DNA from: Clostridia bacterium
Lineage (GTDB): Bacteria > Bacillota > Clostridia > UBA1212 > DUPL01
Length of the DNA stretch: 64,000 nt
Assembly (NCBI GenBank): GCA_050951325.1
Contig: JBMNIW010000008.1
Coordinates: 288,001 to 352,000, forward strand
Direction: 5' to 3'
The notes beneath the pieces are model-generated. The model was given only the letters and a program-made list of their open reading frames with translations, was not told the origin of the DNA and searched no databases. Of this stretch, positions 8,955 to 22,672 are shown in pieces; position 1 is the first letter of the stretch, and each line of letters opens with the position of its first letter. The position numbers were made by a program, and so were the translations under genes.

Positions 8955-11300
8955 TTAGATATATTCTTCTATAAACCTTGACCTATTCTCTGAATTAAAC
9001 AGAAACGCAACTTTAACACGTGCTCTGGATACTGCCTGATGCCACAAACGTCTTTCAGAGGCAAAGGCATACAATTCAGGCTTTATGCCGAATAAACTCT
9101 TTACGTTCTCCCCCATCATTCTGTCCGGGAATCCCATATTGTACCTTCTGGCGTTGATGATGATGACGACGTCCGCACTTTCATCAAGATCGTATACGGT
9201 TTTAACGGGAATATCTGAAAGATTCATTTTGGAAGCCAAAACAATATCCTCCTTAAATCTTCCCACTAAAATTACAGAATATTCATTTGGGAGTGAATTT
9301 ATATAATTTTGTAAAGTGTTTTTCATAATCTCAATCTCATTTTCATCAAAAAGGGACTTTGTATCTTCCTTCTTGCATTCGTAAGACAAGAGCGTCACAC
9401 AATCGCGAGGACTTGCCATTTCACACCTTGCATACTTCCTCACCTGCATGGTGTTGCGTTCAACAAACCTTGCATTCATGCTCCACAATCTCTGTCCCTG
9501 GGAAAATACCCTTGTAAACTTAATGGACTCGGAGTGTCCAAAGAATCTCGAAAACTCCGTGAAATATGAAAAGTCGTAAGCACAAATACCACTCTTGGTC
9601 TGCCAGTCATTACCCGCAACAATTATACTTACCTTATCCATTACAATGTGCCATACATTCCTGAGCAAGTTCAGCATGTGTCTGTTCGTGTTGTGAAAAT
9701 CGTCAACAATAATATGTGTATAACCAAGAGACCTTCTCTGCAGCCTGATGGTCTCGGATGCCATCTGTACAATACCAAATGCATCCGTATTGTCACCGAT
9801 ATAGTTTAAATATGTTTCGTATACTGGCATAAGCAATGAAAACACACTTTCATTTCTCTTGTACCATCTGGTCTTTGTTTTCATGCTTTCTCTGTTCAAG
9901 AAAATGATTTCTTGCCATGTTTCAGAGTTGTCTCTGGCCAGCTGCAACAGCTCGCCAAGCACTACTGAAATTTCACGGATTAAAAACGGATTTCTCTCAA
10001 GAATGATTTTTAAAAGAGCATTCGCACTCATGGGAGCAAACACAGCCAAATGCTTCATGAGCTTTGTCTGCAAGTGGTCAACCAGAGTGGATTCCATAAG
10101 CTCGTAAGTAAACACATCCACCATCACAGTGTGGTTCTTTTCATGAATTTCTCTTATACGCTGCATCCTCTTTTTATATATCTCTGTAGGTGTCTCTGAA
10201 ACCAGGGACGTACCCGTGTCAAATCTGGCCTCACCTGCGGCATTTATTTCAAACACCTCAATATATATATCAAAGTCTGGCAGATAGAAAACTGGCTTGT
10301 ATGAAGTTCCATCATAATCCAGTTCTCTAACGCAATAGTCTTGCATGTACCTGTACCTTATATTGTTTCTGTACAGGAAGTCAGCTACAGCAAGATGCTC
10401 GTAATTCTTCATTCTGGTTCCGTCCAGTGCAATAGGAGGATATTCCTCCAGAAACTGCAAATAATCCTCATAATCATCAAAATCAAAAACAACACTACCT
10501 GCCTGCCTGAAGTTTAGGTAATAGTCTACAAACCTGGACTTGTACTCCTCTTCCTCCAACAACTTTTTAATTGTGCTTTCTGCAAATTCTTCATAGTCCA
10601 CATCAACAACATCAGGCACCTCTTTTCCATGGTCGGCAAGCACCTGAGCACTGTAGTCGATATATGTTTTGGCAATGGGCGAAATTCCCTCTTTTTCAAG
10701 CATCCGATTTACTTTATCAGCATTCTTTCCGCTATTGGTCAAAAACAATATATTATCCTCAGGCACATTTTTACCCTTTACCAGATACTTCACTTTACCA
10801 ACACAGGTATGTGTAAGTCCCGATGTACCTGCACCAATTAGTCTGAGCCTTTTTTCATCCACTACAACAGCTGTTTTTTGTTCCTTGTTAAGAATCACAC
10901 CATTTATATTAAATATGCTTTGATCTACAGAACCAATCATCTTGTCAACAACAGGCTTGTTATGTCTTTTTCTATACTTTTCAATCAATTTGAACATTCT
11001 GATTATCATGTTCAGATCATCTCTGAACACCCTGAGAATGTATTTGAAATCCTTGGACTGCAGAATTATGGACACTCTGTCATGAAGCTCCTCATGCCTG
11101 TCCTGCCAATCGAGCATTTCATTCAAGGAGACATATCTGTTCTTGTCTTCAAAGAGTTTCTGGAAATCCTTATAAGCTTTCAATGTATCGCTTTTCAGTG
11201 TTTTGAGTTCCTTTTTGAAAGCTATTCTTTCTTGCTTCCTTACCTTAAAATTCTCAATCATTCTTTTCATAACATCCAACTCCAAACAAGTATTCTCCAT
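8955..11300 (-). CDS. Helicase IV/UvrD-like protein with degenerate ATPase motifs
   Basis: LNKEQKTAV, GAGTSGLT (Walker A without Lys), IIVDDFHN, AGNDWQT, SERRLWHQAVSRAR; internal ADFLYRNNIRY..YKPVFYLPD segment typical of helicase IV. Confidence 0.75.
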   Translation of the reverse strand: MENTCLELDVMKRMIENFKVRKQERIAFKKELKTLKSDTLKAYKDFQKLFEDKNRYVSLNEMLDWQDRHEELHDRVSIILQSKDFKYILRVFRDDLNMIIRMFKLIEKYRKRHNKPVVDKMIGSVDQSIFNINGVILNKEQKTAVVVDEKRLRLIGAGTSGLTHTCVGKVKYLVKGKNVPEDNILFLTNSGKNADKVNRMLEKEGISPIAKTYIDYSAQVLADHGKEVPDVVDVDYEEFAESTIKKLLEEEEYKSRFVDYYLNFRQAGSVVFDFDDYEDYLQFLEEYPPIALDGTRMKNYEHLAVADFLYRNNIRYRYMQDYCVRELDYDGTSYKPVFYLPDFDIYIEVFEINAAGEARFDTGTSLVSETPTEIYKKRMQRIREIHEKNHTVMVDVFTYELMESTLVDHLQTKLMKHLAVFAPMSANALLKIILERNPFLIREISVVLGELLQLARDNSETWQEIIFLNRESMKTKTRWYKRNESVFSLLMPVYETYLNYIGDNTDAFGIVQMASETIRLQRRSLGYTHIIVDDFHNTNRHMLNLLRNVWHIVMDKVSIIVAGNDWQTKSGICAYDFSYFTEFSRFFGHSESIKFTRVFSQGQRLWSMNARFVERNTMQVRKYARCEMASPRDCVTLLSYECKKEDTKSLFDENEIEIMKNTLQNYINSLPNEYSVILVGRFKEDIVLASKMNLSDIPVKTVYDLDESADVVIIINARRYNMGFPDRMMGENVKSLFGIKPELYAFASERRLWHQAVSRARVKVAFLFNSENRSRFIEEYI

Positions 11301-11618
11301 TCAGCCCATCTGACTTTATCTTACCATATTATCAGTAAAGTTTCTATAAATAAATGGATGTGTATAGTATCTGGAATGCGATTGGTATATAAATATATGC
11401 AAGTATGGCAATTATGTGCTGCAAACAATACTACTATGACTTGAGTTTCCGTTTTTTCAGATTTTTAATCGAAAAAATCTAAGCAAAGTTTTTTGCCAGG
11501 CTCTATTGTTGAGCCGCCTTCGGTTTCGCTTTAAAACAAGCATGCAAAGTAAGCCTAGTTAGCTAGGCTTCTTAAAAAAATATATCTTCCTACTCTTCTA
11601 CTTCTACTTCTGCTGCTT

Positions 11619-11980
11619 CTATGTTATGGGCACCAACATCAGTTGCTGAAACCGAGGTCGCCGTTCAATCCTTTGCCACTCTTTAATACCTGTCCGTGCA
11701 TAGTCTAGTGTATTTTTAATGCCTTGAGCCATTTGGTAATAGTAAAACAAAATGTCCGTTCGCAATCCTCTTGCATTCTCTATCATTTTATTAGCTAAGT
11801 TGTTTTTCTTGTGCTTCTCCTGCATTAGACCAATAAAACCAATAGCATATGTAAGCATTTTATTTAGATTATTGATTGATTTCAAGCTTCGAACTCTAAA
11901 ATCCTCAAAATTGTATTGAGTCTTTTTAAATCTAAAGTATTCTTCAATACGCCATCTAGACATATATAACCTAAGTATAC
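11619..11980 (-). pseudogene. IS4-like transposase, C-terminal part
   Basis: ILRLYMSRWRIEEYFRFKK (YREK-type motif); continues the 20161-21058 fragment. Confidence 0.9.
11974..11980 (+). repeat. Left junction direct repeat AGTATAC
   Basis: Identical to 20161-20167; 9/10 match CTAAGTATAC vs CTTAGTATAC. Confidence 0.85.
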
Positions 11981-12587
11981 CTTTAACTCCCGTGTTATTA
12001 AAAATGGTATCGATACTGAAAATATATTTAAACCTATTAAGTTTGATTATTTAAAAGAAAAATATAATTTAAAGGATGAAAAGATTTTACTCCACGTAAC
12101 TGCGGATTTTGATGATAAAGTTAAAGGGAGTAAGTACTTTATTGAACTTGCAAATAGGCTTGAAAATGAGAATATAAAGATTTTATTAGTCGGCAAAAAT
12201 GTTTGTAAAGAAAATCTCCCTAAGAATGTAATTGCAGTAGGAGGTATATATGACCAAAAAGAACTTGCTGCATATTATTCCATGGCTGATTTGTTTGTAA
12301 TTACAAGTATTAGAGAGACGTACCCAACAGTTTGTATTGAAGCTATTTCATGTGGAACACCTGTAATTGGATTTGATACTGGAGGAGTAAAAGAGACTAT
12401 ACCAGAGGGTATGGGTAGAGCTGTAGAAGCCTATAGCGTAGACGAGCTTTATTATGCTGTTCTTGAGTTTATTGGTAAGAAAGACAGTGTTTGCAAGGAA
12501 GTTATTAATAAAGCAAGGCATCAGAATAGTAAGGCTAGAATGATTAATGATTATATAGATGTATATATAGAGTTATATGAAAAGTAG
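11981..12587 (+). pseudogene. 5'-truncated GT4-type glycosyltransferase
   Basis: Open frame from junction FNSRVIKNGIDT..LAAYYSMADLFVITSIRETYPTVCIEAISCGTPVIGFDTGG; N-terminal half missing. Confidence 0.85.
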
Positions 12588-12614
12588 GACAATAATATAA
12601 AAGAGGTAAAGATA

Positions 12615-15068
12615 ATGAAAAGTATTAGAAAGTACATAAGTTTAATTCTTCTTATATTTGTTTTTTGTACCGTGGTAGATGTAAATAACTTACCTTATTT
12701 ACATGCAGAAGAAGTCGTAGTTAATTTATATGACTTAAATAACAGCGTAGAAACCTTTGATTTAGATCTAGAATCTACATATGCTATTTTATTTAATGCG
12801 GGTATACCAATAAAAGAAGTACAACTTTATATCGACAATGCACCTGTTAATCGAAGCAAACTAGAAATGGATTTATATAGCTTTGATACCAGCTACGGTA
12901 ATACGATCCGTAAGGAAGCTATTGTTTCTAAAACCTTTGAAAGGTTTGGCAGAGATACATGGCTTTCCTTTGAAATTGGAAATATAAATGCAGGAGAATA
13001 CTTGCTCGTTATAACTCCGAAACAAGGGAATATAAAGGTAAAAGTTAGCGAGGGCAAGCTTGATACAGTAAGAATGTACGAAAATACATCAAGTTTAAAT
13101 ATGAACTTTTTCTGCAGATTAGTACTTGAAAAAGGGGATGGTAATAGTTTGGAGAAAGTATCTGATTTTAAAAATAAATTTATTGCATTGCCAGATACTT
13201 GGGCATGCACCGATGGATTGAATAGAACTCTTCCTTTACAAAAAGATGTGGGTAAAAAAAGAGAAGATAAATATGTAGGGGTTTTCTTTCACACATGGCA
13301 TTCAAGATTTTCAGCACATAGCTTTGCGGACATATCCCAAATATTAAAACAAAATCCAAATGAGAAAAATTCCTCAAATATAAATTGGGGAGATAAGTTC
13401 TCATATTTTTGGAGCGAACCTATTTGGGGTTATTACGATACTAGAGATAAATGGGTACTAAGAAAGCAAGCTGAGATGCTAGCCGATGCAGGCGTTGATG
13501 TAATTATTATGGATAACACAAATGGAACTGATATATTTAAAGAAGGACTCCTTTCGCTACTGCAGGTTTTTTCAGAAGCAAGAGCAGATGGTGTAAAAAC
13601 ACCTCAAGTGTCCTTTATGTTACCTATGTTTGGTCCTTATGAAGATACAGCAAATCAACTAAGACAGCTTTATGATTTGATTTACTCAAAAGGAAGATAT
13701 GAGGATTTATGGTTTTACTGGAAGGGTAAACCTTTAATGATGGGTTGTCCTGATGCATTAAGAGAAAGCAATCCTATTGATAAAGCTATTTTAGACTTTT
13801 TTACTTTTAGGCCAGCTAATCCATCCTATAGGGAAGACTACGCCCAAATTTTTGATGAGCAGGGAAATGTACACGTATATATTCGTCCGCCGGAAGGTCA
13901 TATTACATGGCAATGGATAACTGTAATGCCTCAGCAGGTGGCCTATAATACAGATGGAACACCAGAACAAGTCTGTGTATCTGTAGCCCAGAACTGGAGT
14001 AATGAACAAGGCCTTGCCCCTATGAGCTTTAATGAACCTGAAAAGCTTTTTGGAAGATCCTATTCCCACTCCCAAAAAGGCCATGACAAGAGGGATAACG
14101 CCCCTTTGTATGGGAAGAACTTTGAAGAACAATGGGAATTTGCTCTGAAGGTGGACCCGGAGTTCATTTTCATAACTGGATGGAATGAATGGCGAGCTGG
14201 GCTAAATAATGAGATATGGGGAACTAAAAATGCCTTTGCTGATACCTTTGATGATAATAACAGTAGAGATATTGAACCGTCAAAAGGTGATTTAAAAGAT
14301 CACTACTATTATCAGATGGTATCTTACATACGTAAGTTTAAAGGAGCATCCGATGTGCCAAAAGCATCAAAACCTGTAACTATAGATATACATTCAAGTA
14401 CTGATCAATGGAAGGATATTAGTCCGTACTTTGCGTCTTATCAAGGTAACAATTTGGATAGGTACTATAGGGGCTATGGTGGTTTAAATTATAAACAGGA
14501 AGGCAATAAGAATGATATTGTTGGTGCAAAAGTTGCAAGAGACGATGAATTTATTTACTTTATGGTAGATACAAGGGAAGACATACATATAGGTGATAAC
14601 TTTATGCGGCTTTTAATTGATGTGGAAGATACAAAACATAAAGAAGCAGCTAACTGGGAGACTTTTGAGTATATTGTAAATAGGGTTGCACCAGGGGATA
14701 AAGCAATTGTGGAACGCTCGGTAGGAGGATGGAACTGGGAGAAGGTAGGAGAGGTTGATTATTCTATTAATGGTAATCGCCTTCAACTTAAAGTACCAAA
14801 GGCAATGCTAGGAATTGATAGAGATGAGTTCACAATCAACTTTAAATGGTCTGATAACATGAAAGATGAAGGTGACATAATGGATTTTTATGTTAATGGA
14901 AATGTTGCTCCCGGTGGTAGATTTAAGTATAGATATTCCACTGCTACTGAGGATGCAAATCCTGTTTCTACATTTGTTAAGTACATAGTTCCTGTTTTAG
15001 TATTTGTTATTGTAGCTTCTTTTGGTTTAGCTATATTATTTAAAAAGAATAGAAAGAGAAAAGGTTAA
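12615..15068 (+). CDS. Secreted, anchored GH71/GH99-like glycoside hydrolase (homolog of 5130-7844)
   Basis: WSEPIWGYY, RKQAEMLADAGVD, ITGWNEW, SRDIEP, DHYYYQ; signal peptide and C-terminal TM. Confidence 0.65.
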   Translation: MKSIRKYISLILLIFVFCTVVDVNNLPYLHAEEVVVNLYDLNNSVETFDLDLESTYAILFNAGIPIKEVQLYIDNAPVNRSKLEMDLYSFDTSYGNTIRKEAIVSKTFERFGRDTWLSFEIGNINAGEYLLVITPKQGNIKVKVSEGKLDTVRMYENTSSLNMNFFCRLVLEKGDGNSLEKVSDFKNKFIALPDTWACTDGLNRTLPLQKDVGKKREDKYVGVFFHTWHSRFSAHSFADISQILKQNPNEKNSSNINWGDKFSYFWSEPIWGYYDTRDKWVLRKQAEMLADAGVDVIIMDNTNGTDIFKEGLLSLLQVFSEARADGVKTPQVSFMLPMFGPYEDTANQLRQLYDLIYSKGRYEDLWFYWKGKPLMMGCPDALRESNPIDKAILDFFTFRPANPSYREDYAQIFDEQGNVHVYIRPPEGHITWQWITVMPQQVAYNTDGTPEQVCVSVAQNWSNEQGLAPMSFNEPEKLFGRSYSHSQKGHDKRDNAPLYGKNFEEQWEFALKVDPEFIFITGWNEWRAGLNNEIWGTKNAFADTFDDNNSRDIEPSKGDLKDHYYYQMVSYIRKFKGASDVPKASKPVTIDIHSSTDQWKDISPYFASYQGNNLDRYYRGYGGLNYKQEGNKNDIVGAKVARDDEFIYFMVDTREDIHIGDNFMRLLIDVEDTKHKEAANWETFEYIVNRVAPGDKAIVERSVGGWNWEKVGEVDYSINGNRLQLKVPKAMLGIDRDEFTINFKWSDNMKDEGDIMDFYVNGNVAPGGRFKYRYSTATEDANPVSTFVKYIVPVLVFVIVASFGLAILFKKNRKRKG

Positions 15069-15189
15069 TTAAAAAGATATGTAAATAAGTTTAGGGTAAT
15101 ATTTAAAACTAACTGAATAATTAATAACAGTGTAGGTTGTGCCTTAGAGTGACACATTTCTCATAAAGTGGGATCTTGCAGCGTTATCA

Positions 15190-15300
15190 TGAAGATCCTC
15201 GTAAAAACACTTTGCTTATAGTATTCTTGAGCCTTCTGAACTAAATGTCAATGAGGCCTATTTTCAATAAACCAGTGTTCTCTAATAGCGTTTTTTTGCA
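15190..15300 (-). pseudogene. Possible ISAs1-family transposase relic
   Basis: Manual translation NAIREHWFIENRPH*HL resembles the ISAs1 R.HW.IEN.LHW motif. Confidence 0.45.
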
Positions 15301-15339
15301 GGAACAATCGAGCAGTTAGGTGTTAACAGTAAAAAAAGG

Positions 15340-15377
15340 AAGAGTTATGCAACTTGTCATATTTGCATAACTCTTCT
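15340..15377. terminator. Intrinsic terminator hairpin
   Basis: AAGAGTTATGCAA...TTGCATAACTCTT between convergent genes. Confidence 0.7.
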
Positions 15378-15394
15378 TACTAATTTAAATTCTT

Positions 15395-17623
15395 TTATTT
15401 AACTCTAAAAAGCTTACTCCCATTTCCTTCTACTGTTATTAACATATCATTATTCAGAATCTCCAACTCTTTTTTTGTCAAAAGATCCTCAACTGTATTA
15501 TTGTTTAAGTTATCAAAACTAAGATTACACGACACAATATTGTCAGAAACATTAAGCACAAGCAAATAGCAATTACCATCTATAGCTTCTACACCTAAAG
15601 TCCGGATCTTGTCATTGTCAGAGTAAACTACAAAGGGGTTTATTTTGCTTGTTGTTTTATAATCAATACTCGCCATTACAACAATACCAAAGTCAAATAC
15701 TTTTTCTTCTTTATCAAACCATTGTGGTTTTAAATCAAAAGAAGTACATAACTCATCACATAGCAAATATCCTCTTTCTTTATAAAAACTATGTCTTAAG
15801 CCAACTTTTCTATAATTTGGGTGATAGAGCTTTAAATCCTCTCCATATCCTAAAACTATCCCTAACTTATTGTCTACATTAACCCATCTGCCTACAGAAC
15901 TAAGACTTTCCTCTACTCCTTCATGTTCAAACTTTAAAACGCCATCTTTATAATAATATTCACGTTTAAAATCATTAAAAACATCATTAGGTATATTTAG
16001 ATGAAACCCTTTTACTGCATTCAAATGACAACGCCTAAGTGTATATGCATATTGCAGTGTCATAGTAGTATGTCCATCCGGTAAAGCAGCAAACGCAATT
16101 TTATTTGCTACATTAGTATTCCTATCATCTTGCTCTTCTAATAACTGACTTGTTATTGTATGGTAAACACCACTTGTTACAAATCCTCCATTAAAACTTT
16201 CATTATTAAACGAGACAATTTGATTGGTATTAACTAATCCTCCACCTTCAACTCTACTTGTCATGTTGTATTGCCATTCTGCAAGAGAACTATCGTTTGT
16301 TGGAAGACAATGCCCCTGTGGACCCTCTGCACTTCTCCAAACAAAAGAAGCATATCGATTTTCGTCTTTAACAAACTCTGCTCCATGGTACTCATCAGAC
16401 CACGCACTTAACTCCTTTTTGTATTCCTCATTAATGTCATAATCACTTGTACCATATCGCTTTTCTATTTCATTATACTCTCTTCTCCAATATGCACCTG
16501 ATGAAATAGTACAAGCTCTATCTGACTCAAGGCGTGTAAAATAAAGAGGAGATTTCTCTACTAGAAGCTCACAACGTTTTGATAAAAAAGTATTATCATC
16601 ATTGTAATCCATCTCCTTCTTAACAATTTCAAGCCATCTCTTTTCTAGTTCATCGCAATCTTCATTAAGACAGTCTTTCACTAATAGCAAAACAGGTACT
16701 AAGTAATCTTGACAATAGCAATATCTAACTCTAGTATCACCACCAATTCTAAACAACCTACCATCTTCATATATAAACGCTCTAACAAGTCTCCATAAAT
16801 ATTCCATATTATGATATAAAGAAGCAGGAGCCATTTGTCTATATTTGCGGTATGTAAAGTGCAACATCGCAATATTAGATAATGTTATAATCATATAGCC
16901 CACATTGAGATAACCATGATGATTAAGTGAATAACTCTCAAAAAAATTTGCACCCGAATGCCAATCTTTTAAAGGCTTCCCGAAATATATTTGATTGCTA
17001 TCTTTATCAGAAGGAATTGATATTGCATTTAGCAAGAAACGATTTCCCTTCTCCTTATACTTTTCTACATTAGGTGCATCAGGATACATAAGTGCTGCAC
17101 GAAGCAAAGTTGCACCATTCCACATATTGCTTTCAGGTTCATTAGGGTGAATCTCATTTGCATTAACCGGCTTATTTATTAACAGCCAATCAGCTTCTGA
17201 TAAAATAACCTTCCTAAGCAACTCTTTGTCATCATTCGTTAGATAATCAAAGATTGCTTCTACACCATGCATCATTCTCTCTATACCTAAAGCACTAATC
17301 CAAGTGTGCCCCCACTTAACATTCTCTCCATCAGTGCAATGATAACTACCTTCTTTATGAGATTCTAAGTTGTAGCGTAGTAGCATAATACTTATTTCAA
17401 GTAATTCTTCTTTTGATATTCCCATCCTACGAGAATCGGCATAGGGATCTGTAGCTAATACTGCAAGTGCAGAAAACCCTTTTTGATGAGTCTGCACACC
17501 CCAACCATTTGTTCCAGTCCCATAAAATTTAAGAGTAGATCTGTCTTTTACAGAATGTATATCATTAATAGCAGATTTTACCCATCTTTCAAGAACTCTT
17601 ATATAATCTTTGTGTGAAACCAT
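15395..17623 (-). CDS. Hypothetical 742-aa protein, possibly polysaccharide-lyase-like
   Basis: Intact ORF with AGGAGG RBS; helical N-terminal half (PESNMWNG, NHHGYLNVGY) then beta-rich half; function is inference. Confidence 0.55.
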   Translation of the reverse strand: MVSHKDYIRVLERWVKSAINDIHSVKDRSTLKFYGTGTNGWGVQTHQKGFSALAVLATDPYADSRRMGISKEELLEISIMLLRYNLESHKEGSYHCTDGENVKWGHTWISALGIERMMHGVEAIFDYLTNDDKELLRKVILSEADWLLINKPVNANEIHPNEPESNMWNGATLLRAALMYPDAPNVEKYKEKGNRFLLNAISIPSDKDSNQIYFGKPLKDWHSGANFFESYSLNHHGYLNVGYMIITLSNIAMLHFTYRKYRQMAPASLYHNMEYLWRLVRAFIYEDGRLFRIGGDTRVRYCYCQDYLVPVLLLVKDCLNEDCDELEKRWLEIVKKEMDYNDDNTFLSKRCELLVEKSPLYFTRLESDRACTISSGAYWRREYNEIEKRYGTSDYDINEEYKKELSAWSDEYHGAEFVKDENRYASFVWRSAEGPQGHCLPTNDSSLAEWQYNMTSRVEGGGLVNTNQIVSFNNESFNGGFVTSGVYHTITSQLLEEQDDRNTNVANKIAFAALPDGHTTMTLQYAYTLRRCHLNAVKGFHLNIPNDVFNDFKREYYYKDGVLKFEHEGVEESLSSVGRWVNVDNKLGIVLGYGEDLKLYHPNYRKVGLRHSFYKERGYLLCDELCTSFDLKPQWFDKEEKVFDFGIVVMASIDYKTTSKINPFVVYSDNDKIRTLGVEAIDGNCYLLVLNVSDNIVSCNLSFDNLNNNTVEDLLTKKELEILNNDMLITVEGNGSKLFRVK

Positions 17624-17849
17624 AAATAACTTCCTCCTAAATGACTACAATATCGCCTTTATTATACATCGTAAAACGTTATTAATATATGTATAATTCA
17701 CTAAAAAATATAAAGTTCTAATTATTCTAGATACCTAAGCTCTTTATTTGGGGTAGATATATTTGAAACTCCCATACTTAGAACGTTTCTTTCTGGAAAT
17801 TACGGTATAATTAATTGTTATGATTTTTTGATTTATGCCAGCTTGCATA

Positions 17850-18000
17850 TATACATTACATACTCTCTAATACGATGATATGGTACAGTTGGGGGTATGC
17901 CTCTTTCACACCAGCATGCAGAAGGTTCTGAGACTCGAGCAAAACTAGCGTCATCCATAAACATTAATCGAACAATTCCCTTATATGTGTTTTTTGGTAG
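17850..18000 (-). pseudogene. IS630-family transposase relic
   Basis: VRLMFMDDASFARVSEPSACWCERGIPPTVPYHRIREY resembles IS630 VRLMFQDEAGFGRI..CW..G.RP.VP..IREY. Confidence 0.65.
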
Positions 18001-18488
18001 CCTAGCTGCTGGAATAGTTGTGCCTATAAAAATCGGTAATGAAAATTTGTGAGAAATTAGATTACGATCCAAATACTTCATCTCCAATATGACTGAGACT
18101 AACTCTTGTTTTAATCGTAAATACATGGGTAGATCTATGTCATAAAAGCAGATTTTACATGAATAATACATTATCCTTACATCACTTATATAATCATGTG
18201 CAATAATATCAAAAGTACTCAGATAAAAGAGTGCTACTAAGATTACTTTTAGATCTACTAGGAAAACCCTCTATTGTATTCACCGGTAGATGTAACTGCC
18301 CATAGCACAGCAAAATATGCAAGTCTAAATTTTAGCTTAAATCTGTCATCAAGTTTACTTAATTCCCTACATAAATGGATTTATTTCCATTGTTTGATGA
18401 AAGATACATAGAATGGGAACAGGAATGATTCATTCGGATCCTTAATCATTTTGAATTAGCAATGCATTATATTATAGGAGTGAATTAA

Positions 18489-19409
18489 TTGGAATATATT
18501 ATTGAAGTGAAAAAACTAACAAAAAGCTTTTCAAAAAAGACCGTTGTCGATTGTATTTCTTTTTTTGTTGAAAAAGGAAGTCTATTTGCATTTCTTGGGC
18601 AAAATGGTGCAGGAAAAACAACCACTATCAACATGATTATAGGACTGCTTAGTCAAGAAGAAGGAGAGATTCTCTATCAAGGTAGTTCTGATTTTAAAAG
18701 ATTCAAAAATAAAATTGGCGTTGTATTCCAGAACAATATATTAGATGATTTTCTTTCAGTAGAAGAAAATTTACTCACCTATAGCGCATTGTATCACAAC
18801 ACAAAAAGTCTTGCTCAAGAGCATTACGCCCGTGTGATTAATTTATTATCTCTTGATGAGGTCTGCAAACAACAGTTTCGAACTTTATCCGGGGGACAAA
18901 AACGAAAAGCAGAAATTGCCAGAGCCCTTTTGACAGCACCGGAAATTCTATTCTTAGACGAACCTACTACCGGACTTGATCCTAAGACTCGAGCAGACGT
19001 GTGGGCTGTTATTGACAATCTGAAGAATGTTGATGGAATGACCATCTTCCTCACCACCCACTATATGGAGGAAACTGCCTTAGCAGACAAGGTCGCTATA
19101 ATAAACAAAGGTAAAATTGTTGTAACAGGAAGCCCTTTAGAACTGAAAACTGAATATTCATCCGATAAGCTAATAATTACACCCTATGATGCAAAAACAC
19201 TAGAGAGCTATTTGACAAAGAATGAACTTTCTTATCAAAGGAACAGTAGCACCTATACATTAGAAATTTCAAACGTATCTCACTCTATTGATCTTTTGCA
19301 CAGCATGAAAGAAAACATTCGATTTTATGAAGTTACTAAAGGATCCATGGACGACGTTTTTCTAAATGTCGTAGGAGAAAAACTTTACACAAACGGAGGA
19401 ATCTCATGA
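18489..19409 (+). CDS. ABC-2 type transporter ATP-binding protein
   Basis: GQNGAGKT, LSGGQKRK, FLDEPTTGLD; TTG start after AGGAG. Confidence 0.9.
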   Translation: MEYIIEVKKLTKSFSKKTVVDCISFFVEKGSLFAFLGQNGAGKTTTINMIIGLLSQEEGEILYQGSSDFKRFKNKIGVVFQNNILDDFLSVEENLLTYSALYHNTKSLAQEHYARVINLLSLDEVCKQQFRTLSGGQKRKAEIARALLTAPEILFLDEPTTGLDPKTRADVWAVIDNLKNVDGMTIFLTTHYMEETALADKVAIINKGKIVVTGSPLELKTEYSSDKLIITPYDAKTLESYLTKNELSYQRNSSTYTLEISNVSHSIDLLHSMKENIRFYEVTKGSMDDVFLNVVGEKLYTNGGIS

Positions 19410-20191
19410 ATACAATTTCTGCATTGATAAAACGAAACATACGCTTGTTTCTTCGCGACAAAGCGACAGTCTTTTTCTCTTTTCTAAGCACCCTTATACT
19501 GGTTGCTCTGTATTTGCTTTTTATTGCAGATATTTACACAGACTCAATGGATATTTTAGGAGCTGAAACCTCAGGGTTTTCACTTAACACCGGTGCTAAA
19601 GATTTCATTGTTTACCTGCAAATGATGGCAGGAGTTCTGGTACTTAATTCTATTTCTCTTGCAACGGGTGTTTTCTCTACCATAGCAAAAGATTTTGAAA
19701 GCCGTAGGATTGACAGCTTTTTGCTTACCCCTATCAAACCCTATAAGCTGATCTTCTCCTATTTCATTACAGGGCTTTATGTAAGTCTTACACTAAATGC
19801 AATTACATGGCTGATTAGTTCTGTTGTCATTGGCCTAACCACTGGATTTTGGATTTCTGTAGCAACCTTCTTAATGAGTCTAGTCGTTTTGTTTGTTGCA
19901 TCTATCATATCATGTTCGTTCATGCTTTTAGTAACCACACTAGCAAAATCTTCAGTGGCGATAGGCGTAATTAACGGTTTTTTAGGTACATTTATTGGCT
20001 TTCTTTGTGGTATTTATATGCCCTATAGTAACCTGGGAGAGAGTACAAAAAGGATAGGTTCTCTCTTGCCCTTTTCCCATATCACAATCTGGTTAAAGCG
20101 CGTGGTACTAGGTGATGCATTTTCACAAACCGGCATTCCAGAGGAATATACAGACATCTTAGTATACGTATTGCATCATCTTTTCCTCTAA
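19406..20191 (+). CDS. ABC-2 permease, 3' end replaced by IS sequence after 20167
   Basis: Multiple TM segments, GFLCGIYMP; final codons read from the antisense strand of the transposase. Confidence 0.8.
   Translation: MNTISALIKRNIRLFLRDKATVFFSFLSTLILVALYLLFIADIYTDSMDILGAETSGFSLNTGAKDFIVYLQMMAGVLVLNSISLATGVFSTIAKDFESRRIDSFLLTPIKPYKLIFSYFITGLYVSLTLNAITWLISSVVIGLTTGFWISVATFLMSLVVLFVASIISCSFMLLVTTLAKSSVAIGVINGFLGTFIGFLCGIYMPYSNLGESTKRIGSLLPFSHITIWLKRVVLGDAFSQTGIPEEYTDILVYVLHHLFL
20161..20167 (+). repeat. Right junction direct repeat AGTATAC
   Basis: Identical to 11974-11980. Confidence 0.85.
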
Positions 20192-21058
20192 TTGCTTTAT
20201 TTGTTGCTAACATCATAGGGGTATCTGATAAACCATATACTAGGATAAGACTAATATTTCTTTTGCTAGCAGTTATTTTAACATTAAGATGGCTTATGTA
20301 ACAATCACGGATCTCTTTATCAAAATAACAGTTGGTCTTAATCTTTCCCTTTCTTGAATCCCTTAAAACGGTGGATTTAAACCATTTGCCTTTGTGAAAT
20401 AACTTTCTTTTCTCCGTGAGCCTAATGACATAATCTTGATTATTTTTATGCATGTAATTAAACATAGCATTCATATCATATCCTCGATCGAAAATAAATG
20501 TACCTTTACCCTTTATTGTTTCAATAACTTTATCTAATCCTTCAAAAGTAATTGTGTTTGCTGACTTATAGTCCTCTTCTTTAGATGAATGTATATGAGA
20601 AAATAAACTCGATGGATTCTTTTTCTCCTTAGTTAAAGCTACTATCTCTGTAACCATATAGCCTTTTACTGTTTTTTTCTCTTTGCTAGAACCATCAATT
20701 ACTTTATCGAGACACTCGAATTTATAACCATGAGGCTTAATAACATCACTATCATCCACCATAATAACAGGGTTTTCTCCAATGGCTTCATTTACTAATT
20801 TACAATATTCTCTGTCTATAGATGGATCTAAGTCTTTTTCTAAATTTATACTTAGTCTTTCAATAGTATTTTTCTTTTGTATTGGTTCCATTATGCATCT
20901 GATATACTGCTTAATTTAACATCTTTCTTCTTAATAATTCCATACACCATATCTGAAACAAACTTACAACTGACTTGTCCTGACTTTTTAGTTAGTTTAC
21001 TTGTGAAGTTAAAAATACTTCTCTTGATTTGATATGTATCTGTGGTAGAATAGTACAT
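20161..21058 (-). pseudogene. IS4-like transposase, N-terminal part (1-bp frameshift near 20893)
   Basis: MYYSTTDTYQIKR..., VDDSDVIKP, FIFDRGYD, PMMLATN..DDAIRIL; GCATAATG where GCATTAATG would restore the frame. Confidence 0.9.
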
Positions 21059-21192
21059 GTGGAAACCCCTTTTCATTTTGTTTAGTATGCTTTTTATCGC
21101 ATTAAAATTATACCAAATAAACGAGAGGGTTTCCACTTTTTTATGCTCTTTTTACTAATATTTCGACTGTTTTTAGTGCTTTTTTGCAAATC

Positions 21193-21201
21193 TGTGGATA
21201 A
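21193..21201 (-). promoter_or_regulatory. Consensus DnaA box inside the IS end
   Basis: TGTGGATAA = TTATCCACA on minus strand. Confidence 0.45.
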
Positions 21202-21258
21202 CTTTTGTTTTTATCTAGAAAACCATTTAAAAAAACGGAAACTCAAGTACTATGAACC

Positions 21259-22318: not shown

Positions 22319-22324
22319 AAAAAC

Positions 22325-22672
22325 GTGCAAGCATACCTATAAGCCGGGTTCTGTCGAGAATGATCATCTATCTTGACCATACATTACTGTATGGTTCCAG
22401 CCACCTTGGGAAATAAGCCGGACCAGCTTGTTCTTCCACTGCGGTGTTGCTCCGGGCGGGGTTTACACGGCCAACATGTCACCATGCTGCCGGTGAGCTC
22501 TTACCTCACCTTTTCACCCTTACTCAGTATTGAACTGAGCGGTTATTTTCTGTTGCACTTTCCTGGGAGTCGCCTCCACTGGGTGTTACCCAGCACCCTG
22601 TCCTGCGGAGCCCGGACTTTCCTCAAATACATCCTTTCGAATTGTATTCGCGATCATTCAGTATGCTTGCAC
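22325..22672 (-). ncRNA. rnpB: RNase P RNA
   Basis: GAGGAAAGTCCGGGCTCC and ACAGAACCCGGCTTA universal motifs; P1 GTGCAAGCATAC/GTATGCTTGCAC. Confidence 0.97.

What the first reader, a model, noticed from the sequence alone, without database searches (positions are those of the whole stretch)
11432..21255. IS whose transposase is split by an 8.2-kb cargo that could be excised precisely at AGTATAC repeats
Seen: one pair of 18-bp IRs and one 8-bp TSD bracket 9.8 kb. The N-terminal half ends ...DDAIRIL and the C-terminal half resumes ILRLYMSRWRIEE, sharing AGTATAC (11974-11980, 20161-20167). Removing 8187 bp rebuilds a ~1.62-kb IS, in frame at this junction and just before the catalytic YREK-type motif; a separate 1-bp frameshift near 20893 would remain. 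The cargo has no recognisable integrase and no IRs of its own. Inference: an IS turned into a cargo-carrying cassette by single-crossover capture of a circle, possibly at a hotspot or cryptic att site, and mobilisable in trans. Excision could act as a DNA-level switch.
Basis: partly seen in the sequence, partly recalled or inferred. Interest (0 to 1): 0.8.

Follow-up and report, generated by a model that had tools for sequence, protein, structure and literature searches.

The report
Dead insertion sequence holding foreign DNA
An ordinary jumping gene in an anaerobic-digester bacterium was broken when an 8.2-kb scrap of foreign chromosomal DNA was inserted into its transposase gene; this looks like a one-off accident, not a switch or a new mobile system.

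Summary
An IS4-family insertion sequence (IS) has perfect 18-bp inverted repeats and an 8-bp target duplication. Its transposase gene is split by 8,180 bp flanked by AGTATAC. Removing 8,187 bp gives a 1,621-bp IS colinear with intact 417-420-aa relatives, the best 94% identical.

The structure is not an assembly artefact. Independent contigs from three public metagenomes carry the insert into the IS on both sides.

The insert is not a cassette with its own ends. It starts at about codon 203 of 405 of a glycosyltransferase gene and stops about 49 codons short of the end of an ABC-2 permease gene. It has low GC for this genome, and no donor was found.

Nothing supports a hotspot or a switch:
- 79 of 80 other copies of this IS family are unsplit at this point; the other one runs off its contig.
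- The uninterrupted junction found in four metagenomes belongs to a copy that differs by 6-8%.
- No circle junction appeared.
- Excision would only restore a frameshifted transposase gene.

Best reading: a dead, single-copy IS that took a one-off non-homologous insertion of foreign DNA. The whole 9.8-kb unit is absent from some strains, where the target site is empty. It could in principle move like a mobile insertion cassette, but this is untested. Interest is low to moderate.

The parts
11432..11439 (.). Left copy of the 8-bp target site duplication (tactatga)
   Evidence: The empty-site joint 11431->21248 shares 8 letters, in runs X15 and X20 (table 5).
11440..11457 (+). Inverted repeat at the C-terminal end of the IS. 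It begins with the family core CTTGAGTTTCCG.
   Evidence: (pair I5)
11619..11980 (-). C-terminal third of the transposase gene, stop codon included. It carries the YREK-type motif and the E of the DDE triad.
   Evidence: (DDE_Tnp_1 profile positions 154-190 of 200)
11974..11980 (.). Left copy of the 7-bp repeat AGTATAC
11981..20160 (.). 8,180-bp insert of foreign-looking chromosomal DNA, GC 34.4% against 39.8% for the genome
11981..12587 (+). 3' half of a GT4 glycosyltransferase gene. It starts at about residue 203 of 405, has no start codon of its own, and its first ATG is at 12282.
12615..15068 (+). Intact 817-aa gene of an uncharacterised Bacillota family. The sequence as read shows a hydrophobic N-terminal leader and a hydrophobic stretch near the C-terminus; no predictor was run. 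A 73%-identical DNA paralogue lies on contig C10.
15395..17623 (-). Intact 742-aa gene of an uncharacterised family. There are only weak leads to polysaccharide-lyase-like folds.
18489..19409 (+). ABC transporter ATP-binding protein, DrrA-like, 306 aa
19406..20191 (+). ABC-2 permease cut after 251 of about 300 residues at 20160. It then reads on for 10 IS-encoded residues to a stop.
20161..20167 (.). Right copy of the 7-bp repeat AGTATAC
20168..21058 (-). N-terminal two thirds of the transposase gene, starting at 21058. A 1-bp deletion at about 20891-20893 shifts the frame.
   Evidence: table 4
21230..21247 (-). Inverted repeat at the N-terminal end of the IS
21248..21255 (.). Right copy of the 8-bp target site duplication

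Best explanation
An IS4-family insertion sequence most like the ISPepr1 subgroup landed between a UvrD-like helicase gene and trmB and made an 8-bp target duplication. Its transposase gene is now dead twice over. It has a 1-bp deletion, and it has an 8,180-bp insertion between the DD and E parts of the catalytic domain.

The inserted DNA is a random piece of some other bacterium's chromosome. It comprises half a glycosyltransferase gene, two intact genes of unknown function, an ABC ATPase gene and a permease gene lacking its last ~49 codons. It is not a mobile element with its own ends or recombinase.

It entered in a single non-homologous event that left 7 bp of IS sequence duplicated on either side. 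The mechanism I commit to, at about 45%, is insertion into a 7-nt staggered cut followed by fill-in, which is a true target duplication. The simplest agent is a transposase of this same IS group acting on a fragment excised at surrogate ends. This group makes 7-9-bp duplications.

Shown: the anatomy, the reality of the junctions, the truncation of both end genes, the absence of other split copies, and the lack of any sign of excision. Inferred: the foreign origin and the mechanism of entry.

The 9.8-kb unit is an insertion polymorphism in natural populations. It does nothing as a switch.
For: - Anatomy and colinearity.
- Junctions are real. Contigs with 0 differences run 11951-20224 in X3, 12205-20224 and 11951-12234 in X4, and 11951-18151 and 18122-20224 in X15. 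These are 3 of 4 runs from different studies (table 8).
- Both end genes are truncated. The glycosyltransferase aligns from residue 203 of 405 and matches full-length homologues of 403-415 aa only in their second half. The permease has 251 of about 300 residues.
- No recombinase family in the insert.
- Foreign origin. The insert's GC of 34.4% is in the lowest 1.6% of 1,497 genome windows of 8.18 kb. Close relatives of its permease were not found in the other 44 genomes of the order (E<=1e-40) or, apart from this genome itself, in 398 scored genomes of the class (E<=1e-90). No orphan N-half of the glycosyltransferase is in this genome.
- One-off. 79 of 80 other copies are unsplit and 1 is cut by a contig end.
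- No excision seen. The depth of the 8,187-bp joint equals the depth of the variant letter at 20194 in 4 of 4 runs, and no circle joint is listed.
- For the target-duplication mechanism. Relatives' duplications are 7 bp (5 copies), 8 (6), 9 (9), 10 (2) and 11 (2) among 38 copies. Table 1 of PMC2266710 gives 7-8 bp and AT-rich targets for ISPepr1. The nearest homologues read ..DIL|Y.. and ..KD|F.. where the donor would need the 7-mer. The insert's first 18 bases match the IS inverted repeat at 12 of 18, in the inward orientation, and score in the top 0.057% of genome positions.
Against: - No donor sequence was found, so whether the donor carried AGTATAC is inferred only from homologues that are 82-88% identical.
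- The resemblance of the left terminus to the inverted repeat was noticed post hoc. It has 4 mismatches in the 12-nt core, of which 10 positions are invariant among 50 family repeats (positions 1 and 10 vary). Its log-odds score is -2.8 against 21-23 for the true repeats. After allowing for 34 offsets and ends it is only about p=0.02.
- The right terminus is not like the inverted repeat (best offset: top 1%).
- The left junction is covered by only 30 IS letters, one short of the tool's 31-letter bar.
- Two of the three bridging runs (X3, X4) may be the source of this assembly.
- Contigs drop rare variants, so low-frequency excision is not excluded.
- In X4 the flank depth (40) is about the sum of the insert-bearing copy (21) and the variant copy (20-26). 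One contig runs from the flank into the IS. An uninterrupted copy at this same site in some cells of X4 is therefore not excluded.
Confidence: 0.75

Rival explanations
1. Microhomology-mediated capture. An 8,187-bp circle, or a template-switching replication fork, carrying one AGTATAC recombined with the AGTATAC in the IS without any dedicated enzyme. Both junctions then show the shared 7-mer.
For: - An identical 7-mer at both junctions is exactly what a single crossover gives.
- Ends inside genes fit a random fragment.
- AGTATAC is common enough to flank many 8-kb segments: 271 plus 261 occurrences in 3.08 Mb.
Against: - The closest full-length homologues of the two cut genes do not have the 7-mer at the break points. 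Four of 4 permeases read DIL then Y or C. The two close glycosyltransferases (2 of 3) read KD then F; the 50%-identical third reads differently there. This is weak evidence, at 50-88% identity.
- It does not explain the inverted-repeat-like left terminus.
- It needs the same 7-mer to be used when the circle forms and again when it integrates.
Confidence: 0.35
2. A nascent mobile insertion cassette. The insert was acquired elsewhere. The whole 9.8-kb unit bounded by the inverted repeats was then moved into this site by a transposase supplied in trans from an intact sister copy.
For: - Both inverted repeats are perfect and the 8-bp duplication is intact.
- An intact copy 92-94% identical co-occurs in 4 of 4 metagenomes, at about 0.5 to 3.5 times the flank depth.
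- Only the empty site (X15, X20) and the filled site were seen. No IS-only state with the window's own letters was seen.
- The IS (31.6% GC) and the insert (34.4%) are both below the genome's 39.8%.
- IS231 moves MIC231 in trans (review passage, PMC6199540).
Against: - This assembly holds a single copy and no other copy of the IS.
- The unit was not seen at any second site.
- The unit is 9.8 kb, against the ~0.7-3 kb quoted for MICs.
- The empty-site joints have only 22 letters on the shorter side and were laid at 90% likeness.
- Failure to see an IS-only state in contigs is weak evidence.
Confidence: 0.2
3. A reversible DNA switch. Precise excision at the AGTATAC repeats turns something on or off.
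For: Removing 8,187 bp restores the frame at the joint.
Against: - No recombinase is in or beside the insert.
- The rejoined gene would still be frameshifted.
- No window-type empty junction and no circle junction were found in 4 runs.
- No other copy of the family is split there.
Confidence: 0.03
4. An assembly chimera.
For: The genome appears to be a draft assembled from a metagenome, in 12 contigs. The best-matching public runs are all metagenomes.
Against: - Independent contigs from X15, and from X3 and X4, cross the right junction by 64 letters and reach 30 letters across the left one with 0 differences.
- 20 runs from 13 studies hold 79-99% of the stretch's words.
Confidence: 0.02

Closest known systems
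ISPepr1 subgroup of the IS4 family (De Palmenaer, Siguier and Mahillon 2008, PMC2266710; Table 1 and passages read)
   Same: - YREK motif present.
- 5'-CT ends.
- AT-rich targets.
- Direct repeats of 7-8 bp.
- Size about 1.5-1.6 kb.
- A single transposase gene; intact relatives encode one 416-420-aa ORF.
   Different: - This copy is 1,621 bp without the insert, slightly long.
- Its ends fit the published consensus at only 6 of 8 specified positions.
- NCBIfam IS4 models hit the intact relative P0001 far below their cut-offs.
- No ISPepr1 member was compared directly.
Mobile insertion cassettes such as MIC231 of Bacillus cereus, an IS231 derivative in the IS4 family (review passage in PMC6199540; original papers not read)
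   Same: - IS-type inverted repeats and a target duplication bracket passenger genes.
- No working transposase inside.
- Movement would need a transposase in trans.
   Different: - Both halves of the transposase gene are still present.
- The unit is 9.8 kb against about 0.7-3 kb.
- It is single-copy and no second site is known.
- The passenger DNA is a fragment with broken genes at both ends.
Nested insertions and debris inside insertion sequences, as in earlier notes of this scan (e1-3397742, e1-899796)
   Same: An IS that has taken up non-functional or patchwork foreign DNA. The cargo looks like an accident, not a payload.
   Different: Here the insert lies inside the transposase gene, is much larger, and is flanked by a 7-bp duplication.
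Capture of neighbouring DNA by a transposase that uses a surrogate end, ISEcp1-type (recalled; no paper read here)
   Same: It would explain gene-internal ends and a terminus that only partly resembles the inverted repeat.
   Different: - Those units keep the IS at one end, but this insert contains no IS.
- Both ends would have to be surrogates.
- Only one end looks like the inverted repeat.

Membership tests
IS4 family, ISPepr1 subgroup | DDE transposase with the Y-(2)-R-(3)-E-(6)-K signature | tested here: met
   YMSRWRIEEYFRFKK in the C-terminal piece and in P0001. The definition is from PMC2266710.
IS4 family, ISPepr1 subgroup | Match to curated transposase models | tested here: inconclusive
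   Pfam DDE_Tnp_1 scores 22.3 and 22.1 bits on the two pieces against a cut-off of 23. For P0001 the best NCBIfam IS4 model scores 51.6 bits against a cut-off of 160.
IS4 family, ISPepr1 subgroup | Size 1500-1600 bp, 5'-CT ends, 7-8-bp direct repeats, AT-rich target | tested here: met
   - Size: 1,621 bp, slightly over.
- Ends start CT.
- The target duplication here is 8 bp and AT-rich.
- Relatives show 7-9 bp in 20 of the 24 copies that have a duplication.
IS4 family, ISPepr1 subgroup | Transposase gene without a frameshift | tested here: not met
   This copy has a 1-bp deletion and the 8.18-kb insert. Intact relatives have one 416-420-aa ORF. The copy is a dead member; the family assignment rests on the relatives.
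Mobile insertion cassette (MIC) | Two IS-type inverted repeats flanking passenger genes, with a target duplication | tested here: met
Mobile insertion cassette (MIC) | No transposase gene | tested here: not met
   Both halves of the gene remain, though inactivated.
Mobile insertion cassette (MIC) | Mobilised in trans: several copies or sites, or an assay | tested here: not met
   The assembly holds a single copy and no inverted repeat lies at any contig end. No second site was seen. No assay is possible with these tools.
Site-specific integrative element (att site with an integrase or host recombinase) | A recombinase gene in or beside the element | tested here: not met
   No integrase or recombinase family among the insert's proteins in Pfam or NCBIfam.
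Site-specific integrative element (att site with an integrase or host recombinase) | Recurrent use of the same target sequence | tested here: not met
   None of 80 other copies of the IS family is split at this point: 79 are contiguous and 1 is cut by a contig end.
Developmentally or phase-regulated excision element (DNA switch) | Excision products, and a functional gene restored | tested here: not met
   No window-type rejoined junction or circle junction in 4 runs. The restored gene would still be frameshifted.
Composite transposon | Two IS copies flanking the cargo | tested here: not met
   The two flanking pieces are complementary halves of one IS.

The most novel reading that the evidence does not exclude
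A transposase of this IS group excised a chromosomal segment from fortuitous, inverted-repeat-like surrogate ends. It pasted the segment, with a 7-bp duplication, into a sister IS copy. The resulting 9.8-kb unit bounded by the inverted repeats was then moved as a whole into this site by a transposase supplied in trans. That would be a caught-in-the-act example of how mobile insertion cassettes acquire passenger genes.
Probability: 0.1. Interest if true: 0.55.

Novelty: new member of a known kind. Interest (0 to 1): 0.25.

Why it matters
Mostly it does not. This is a decaying insertion sequence that absorbed a scrap of foreign DNA. The one point of wider interest is how IS-derived cassettes pick up passenger genes. 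Here both halves of the transposase gene are still visible around the insert, the insert is flanked by a duplication of the length this IS group itself makes, and the unit is polymorphic in several natural communities. If the surrogate-end reading were confirmed, it would document an early step in cassette formation. As it stands, the insert brings two intact genes of unknown, probably carbohydrate-related, function and a crippled ABC exporter into the host.

Tried and rejected
- Donor search. None of these found the donor:
  - The genome itself has only a 73%-identical paralogous locus on C10 and no orphan N-half of the glycosyltransferase.
  - 45 genomes of the order, searched by DNA.
  - JGI metagenome contigs: best 77%.
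  - Protein database: best 82% for the glycosyltransferase and 88% for the permease.
  - 45 genomes of the order and 398 scored genomes of the class, searched with the permease.
  - Plasmids.
- In-vivo restriction and ligation at GTATACs. The 6-bp palindrome inside the repeat suggested it. GTATAC is not avoided in this genome (observed/expected 1.05, rank 55 of 64 palindromes), and one GTATAC lies inside the insert at 12802. Nothing supports the idea, and the homologue argument against donor-borne sites applies to it too.
- A terminal inverted repeat belonging to the insert: none among the listed pairs.
- Other IS copies hidden at contig ends of the assembly: none.
- RNA genes in the region: only RNase P RNA, outside the element.
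- Function of the 817-aa and 742-aa proteins. Pfam, NCBIfam and PDB sequence searches were empty. The Atlas gave only unnamed clusters and weak leads.
- Earlier notes of this scan: none on this place or this sequence.
- Run X20. No listed contig piece covers either junction (211 pieces were not shown), so X20 says nothing about the junctions.

Full report
**What is there**

The window is G000:C8:288001-352000, in a 3.08-Mb, 12-contig genome. That genome is the only member of its family among the genomes held.

- An 8-bp direct repeat, tactatga, lies at 11432-11439 and 21248-21255.
- Just inside it are perfect 18-bp inverted repeats at 11440-11457 and 21230-21247. The repeat finder reports them as a 24-nt pair at 92% (I5).
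- On the minus strand a transposase gene starts at 21058 and loses its frame at about 20891-20893.
- It continues to ...DDAIRIL at 20168 and resumes at 11980 with ILRLYMSRWRIEEYFRFKK, running to a stop at 11619-11621.
- AGTATAC occurs at 11974-11980 and again at 20161-20167.

**Is it one IS?**

The search for related loci returned 78 loci from other genomes. Most hold an uninterrupted gene of 415-422 aa.

The protein database gave 2,657 relatives. The best, P0001, is 417 aa and 94% identical over the N-half; the next is 80% identical.

blastx of the two window pieces against five intact relatives places the N-piece up to residue 305 and the C-piece from residue 303 of a 420-aa protein. The overlap is exactly the three residues that the repeated 7-mer encodes. 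P0001 is colinear across the joint.

Removing 8,187 bp therefore rebuilds a 1,621-bp IS. The relatives measured are 1,564-1,607 bp.

The C-piece carries Y-(2)-R-(3)-E-(6)-K, the IS4-family signature (definition read in PMC2266710). Table 1 of that paper describes the ISPepr1 subgroup as 1500-1600 bp, with 5'-CT ends, 7-8-bp direct repeats and AT-rich targets. That fits this element best. I did not compare it with a named ISPepr1 member, and curated models hit only below their cut-offs.

**What the insert is**

The insert is 11981-20160, 8,180 bp. It holds:

- The second half of a GT4 glycosyltransferase gene. It aligns from residue 203 of the 405-aa paralogue on contig C10 (77% identical). It matches full-length homologues of 403-415 aa only in their second half.
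- An intact 817-aa gene and, on the other strand, an intact 742-aa gene. Neither has any Pfam, NCBIfam or PDB sequence match. The Atlas gives only unnamed clusters, with weak hints of carbohydrate-binding or lyase-like relatives.
- A DrrA-like ABC ATPase gene.
- An ABC-2 permease gene that stops being permease after residue 251. Its four closest full-length relatives are 298-301 aa. The window copy then reads on for 10 IS-encoded residues.

So both end genes are cut. There is no recombinase and no terminal inverted repeat among the listed pairs. This is a fragment, not an element.

**Origin**

- The insert's GC is 34.4% against 39.8% for the genome. That is the lowest 1.6% of 1,497 windows of the same length. 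The IS is 31.6%.
- The genome holds no second copy of the insert and no orphan N-half of the glycosyltransferase.
- The permease family was not found, with P0122 as query, in the other 44 genomes of the order (E<=1e-40). It was also not found in any of 398 scored genomes of the class other than this genome itself (E<=1e-90, 2 genomes not scored).
- No database gave a donor. The best matches were 77% for the glycosyltransferase fragment in metagenome contigs, and 82% (glycosyltransferase) and 88% (permease) in the protein database.
- Foreign origin is therefore inferred, not shown.

**Is the structure real?**

Twenty public runs from 13 studies hold 79-99% of the 9.8-kb stretch's words. They are bioreactor, digester and landfill metagenomes. 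I laid Logan contigs from four runs of four studies.

- Contigs with 0 differences run 11951-20224 (X3, 8,274 nt), 12205-20224 and 11951-12234 (X4), and 11951-18151 and 18122-20224 (X15).
- The right junction is crossed by 64 letters.
- The left junction is reached by only 30 IS letters. That is one short of the tool's 31-letter bar and equals the k-1 overlap at which such contigs break.
- X3 and X4 may be the source of this assembly. X15 is flagged as neither.
- For X20 no listed piece covers a junction (211 pieces not shown).

I regard an assembly chimera as very unlikely.

**Excision, empty sites and other copies**

Table 5 lists a joint 11973->20161 (skips 8,187, 7 letters shared) in 4 of 4 runs.

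- Its depth is 16.3, 133, 22.5 and 18.8. In every run that is identical to the depth of the variant letter A at 20194. The joint therefore lies on a different IS haplotype.
- That haplotype differs from the window by 24 letters in 411 and 70 in 861 (X15 records 2 and 5).
- In X15 and X20 it has one extra base at 20893, so it carries no frameshift.
- The window's own G at 20194 has depths of 21.3, 44.3 and 14.8 in X4, X15 and X3. Those equal the depths of the insert-bearing contigs.
- No back-joint between 20160 and 11981 is listed.

So there is no sign of precise excision, with the caveat that contigs drop rare variants.

A second joint, 11431->21248 (skips 9,816, 8 letters shared), appears in X15 (depth 40.5) and X20 (3.8). 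There the flank contigs also stop exactly at the IS borders. Some strains therefore have the empty target site.

Both joints have only 22-23 letters on the shorter side and were laid at 90% likeness. The tool warns that such joints can mislead.

One puzzle remains. In X4 the flank depth (40) is roughly the sum of the insert (21) and the variant IS (20-26), and one contig runs from the flank into the IS. I cannot exclude an uninterrupted copy at this same site in part of that population.

**Hotspot?**

I split P0001 at the joint and searched both parts against the 78 loci. All 79 N-parts with sequence downstream are followed by the C-part within 22 nt. One (L028) runs off its contig. No other copy is split here.

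The assembly has no other copy of the IS and no inverted-repeat core at any contig end.

**How did the insert get in?**

A 7-bp match at the second junction is not chance, at about 1 in 10,000. Two kinds of event give it.

*(a) A single crossover or template switch at a 7-bp microhomology.* The donor, or a circle made from it, must then carry AGTATAC.

*(b) Insertion into a 7-nt staggered cut with fill-in.* Both copies then come from the IS.

Three observations lean towards (b), none strongly:

- The four nearest permeases read DIL followed by Y or C at the break, and the two nearest glycosyltransferases read KD followed by F. The 7-mer is not expected in the donor at either border (69-88% identity).
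- Relatives of this IS make duplications of 7 (5 copies), 8 (6), 9 (9), 10 (2) and 11 bp (2). A further 14 of the 38 copies have none. The published range for ISPepr1 is 7-8 bp.
- The first 18 bases of the insert, exactly from 11981 and pointing inward, match the IS's own inverted repeat at 12 of 18. With a matrix built from 50 family repeats they score in the top 0.057% of all genome positions.

Against the third point:

- I noticed it post hoc.
- It has 4 mismatches in the 12-nt core, of which 10 positions are invariant (positions 1 and 10 vary).
- The score is -2.8 against 21-23 for the real repeats.
- Allowing for 34 offset-and-end combinations gives about p=0.02.
- The other terminus is not like the inverted repeat.

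I therefore commit to (b) at about 45%, most simply a transposase of this IS group acting on a fragment cut at surrogate ends. I keep (a) at about 35%.

A third idea was restriction and ligation at the GTATAC palindrome inside the repeat. It found no support. GTATAC is not avoided (observed/expected 1.05), and one such site lies inside the insert.

**Comparison with what is known**

The closest known kind is the mobile insertion cassette. MICs have IS inverted repeats around passenger genes and no transposase, and IS231 moves MIC231 in trans (passage of the review PMC6199540; I did not read the original papers).

This unit shares the inverted repeats, the duplication and the dead transposase. 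It differs in four ways:

- It keeps both halves of the gene.
- It is 9.8 kb.
- It is single-copy.
- It carries broken genes at the insert's borders.

Earlier notes of this scan describe comparable cargo-bearing or debris-bearing IS derivatives in other genomes. I did not check them.

**Verdict**

The reading as a system, a hotspot or a switch is not supported.

This is a new member of a known kind: a dead IS with a nested one-off insertion, at most a cassette in the making. Interest is 0.25.

Noticed in passing
L063:3670-8453: A long-read metagenome-assembled Parasporobacterium contig carries three head-to-tail copies of a related IS, each 1,590 bp. Exactly 7 bp (TACTTTA) separates neighbours, and the same 7-mer flanks the array. 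Tandem IS arrays spaced by one target-duplication length are unusual for a cut-and-paste family.
   Followed up: partly
window 11981-11998: The first 18 bases of the insert match the IS inverted repeat at 12 of 18 and score in the top 0.057% of genome positions, at exactly the junction and pointing inward. The other terminus does not match. This was noticed post hoc and is possibly chance.
   Followed up: yes
window 10500-11670 in run X4: In X4 the flank depth (40.4) is about the sum of the insert-bearing contig (21.3) and the diverged IS contigs (20-26). A single contig runs from the flank into the IS and carries the variant letters at 11610-11617. An uninterrupted IS at the same site in part of that population is not excluded.
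   Followed up: no
G000:C10:7000-12978: A paralogous locus has a full-length 405-aa glycosyltransferase followed by an 817-aa protein. It is 73% identical in DNA to the first 3 kb of the insert. Weaker DNA matches to the 817-aa gene lie on C1, C12, C7 and C5.
   Followed up: partly
window 22324-22500: Bacterial RNase P RNA (class A) lies on the minus strand, cut by the end of the stretch searched.
   Followed up: no
window 8955-11300: A 781-aa protein with only a weak UvrD-helicase N-terminal match (E 8.6e-6) lies directly left of the IS.
   Followed up: no
window 17624-18488: An 865-bp stretch between the divergent 742-aa gene and the ABC ATPase gene holds only a 112-aa ORF with no family match and no Rfam match.
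   Followed up: partly
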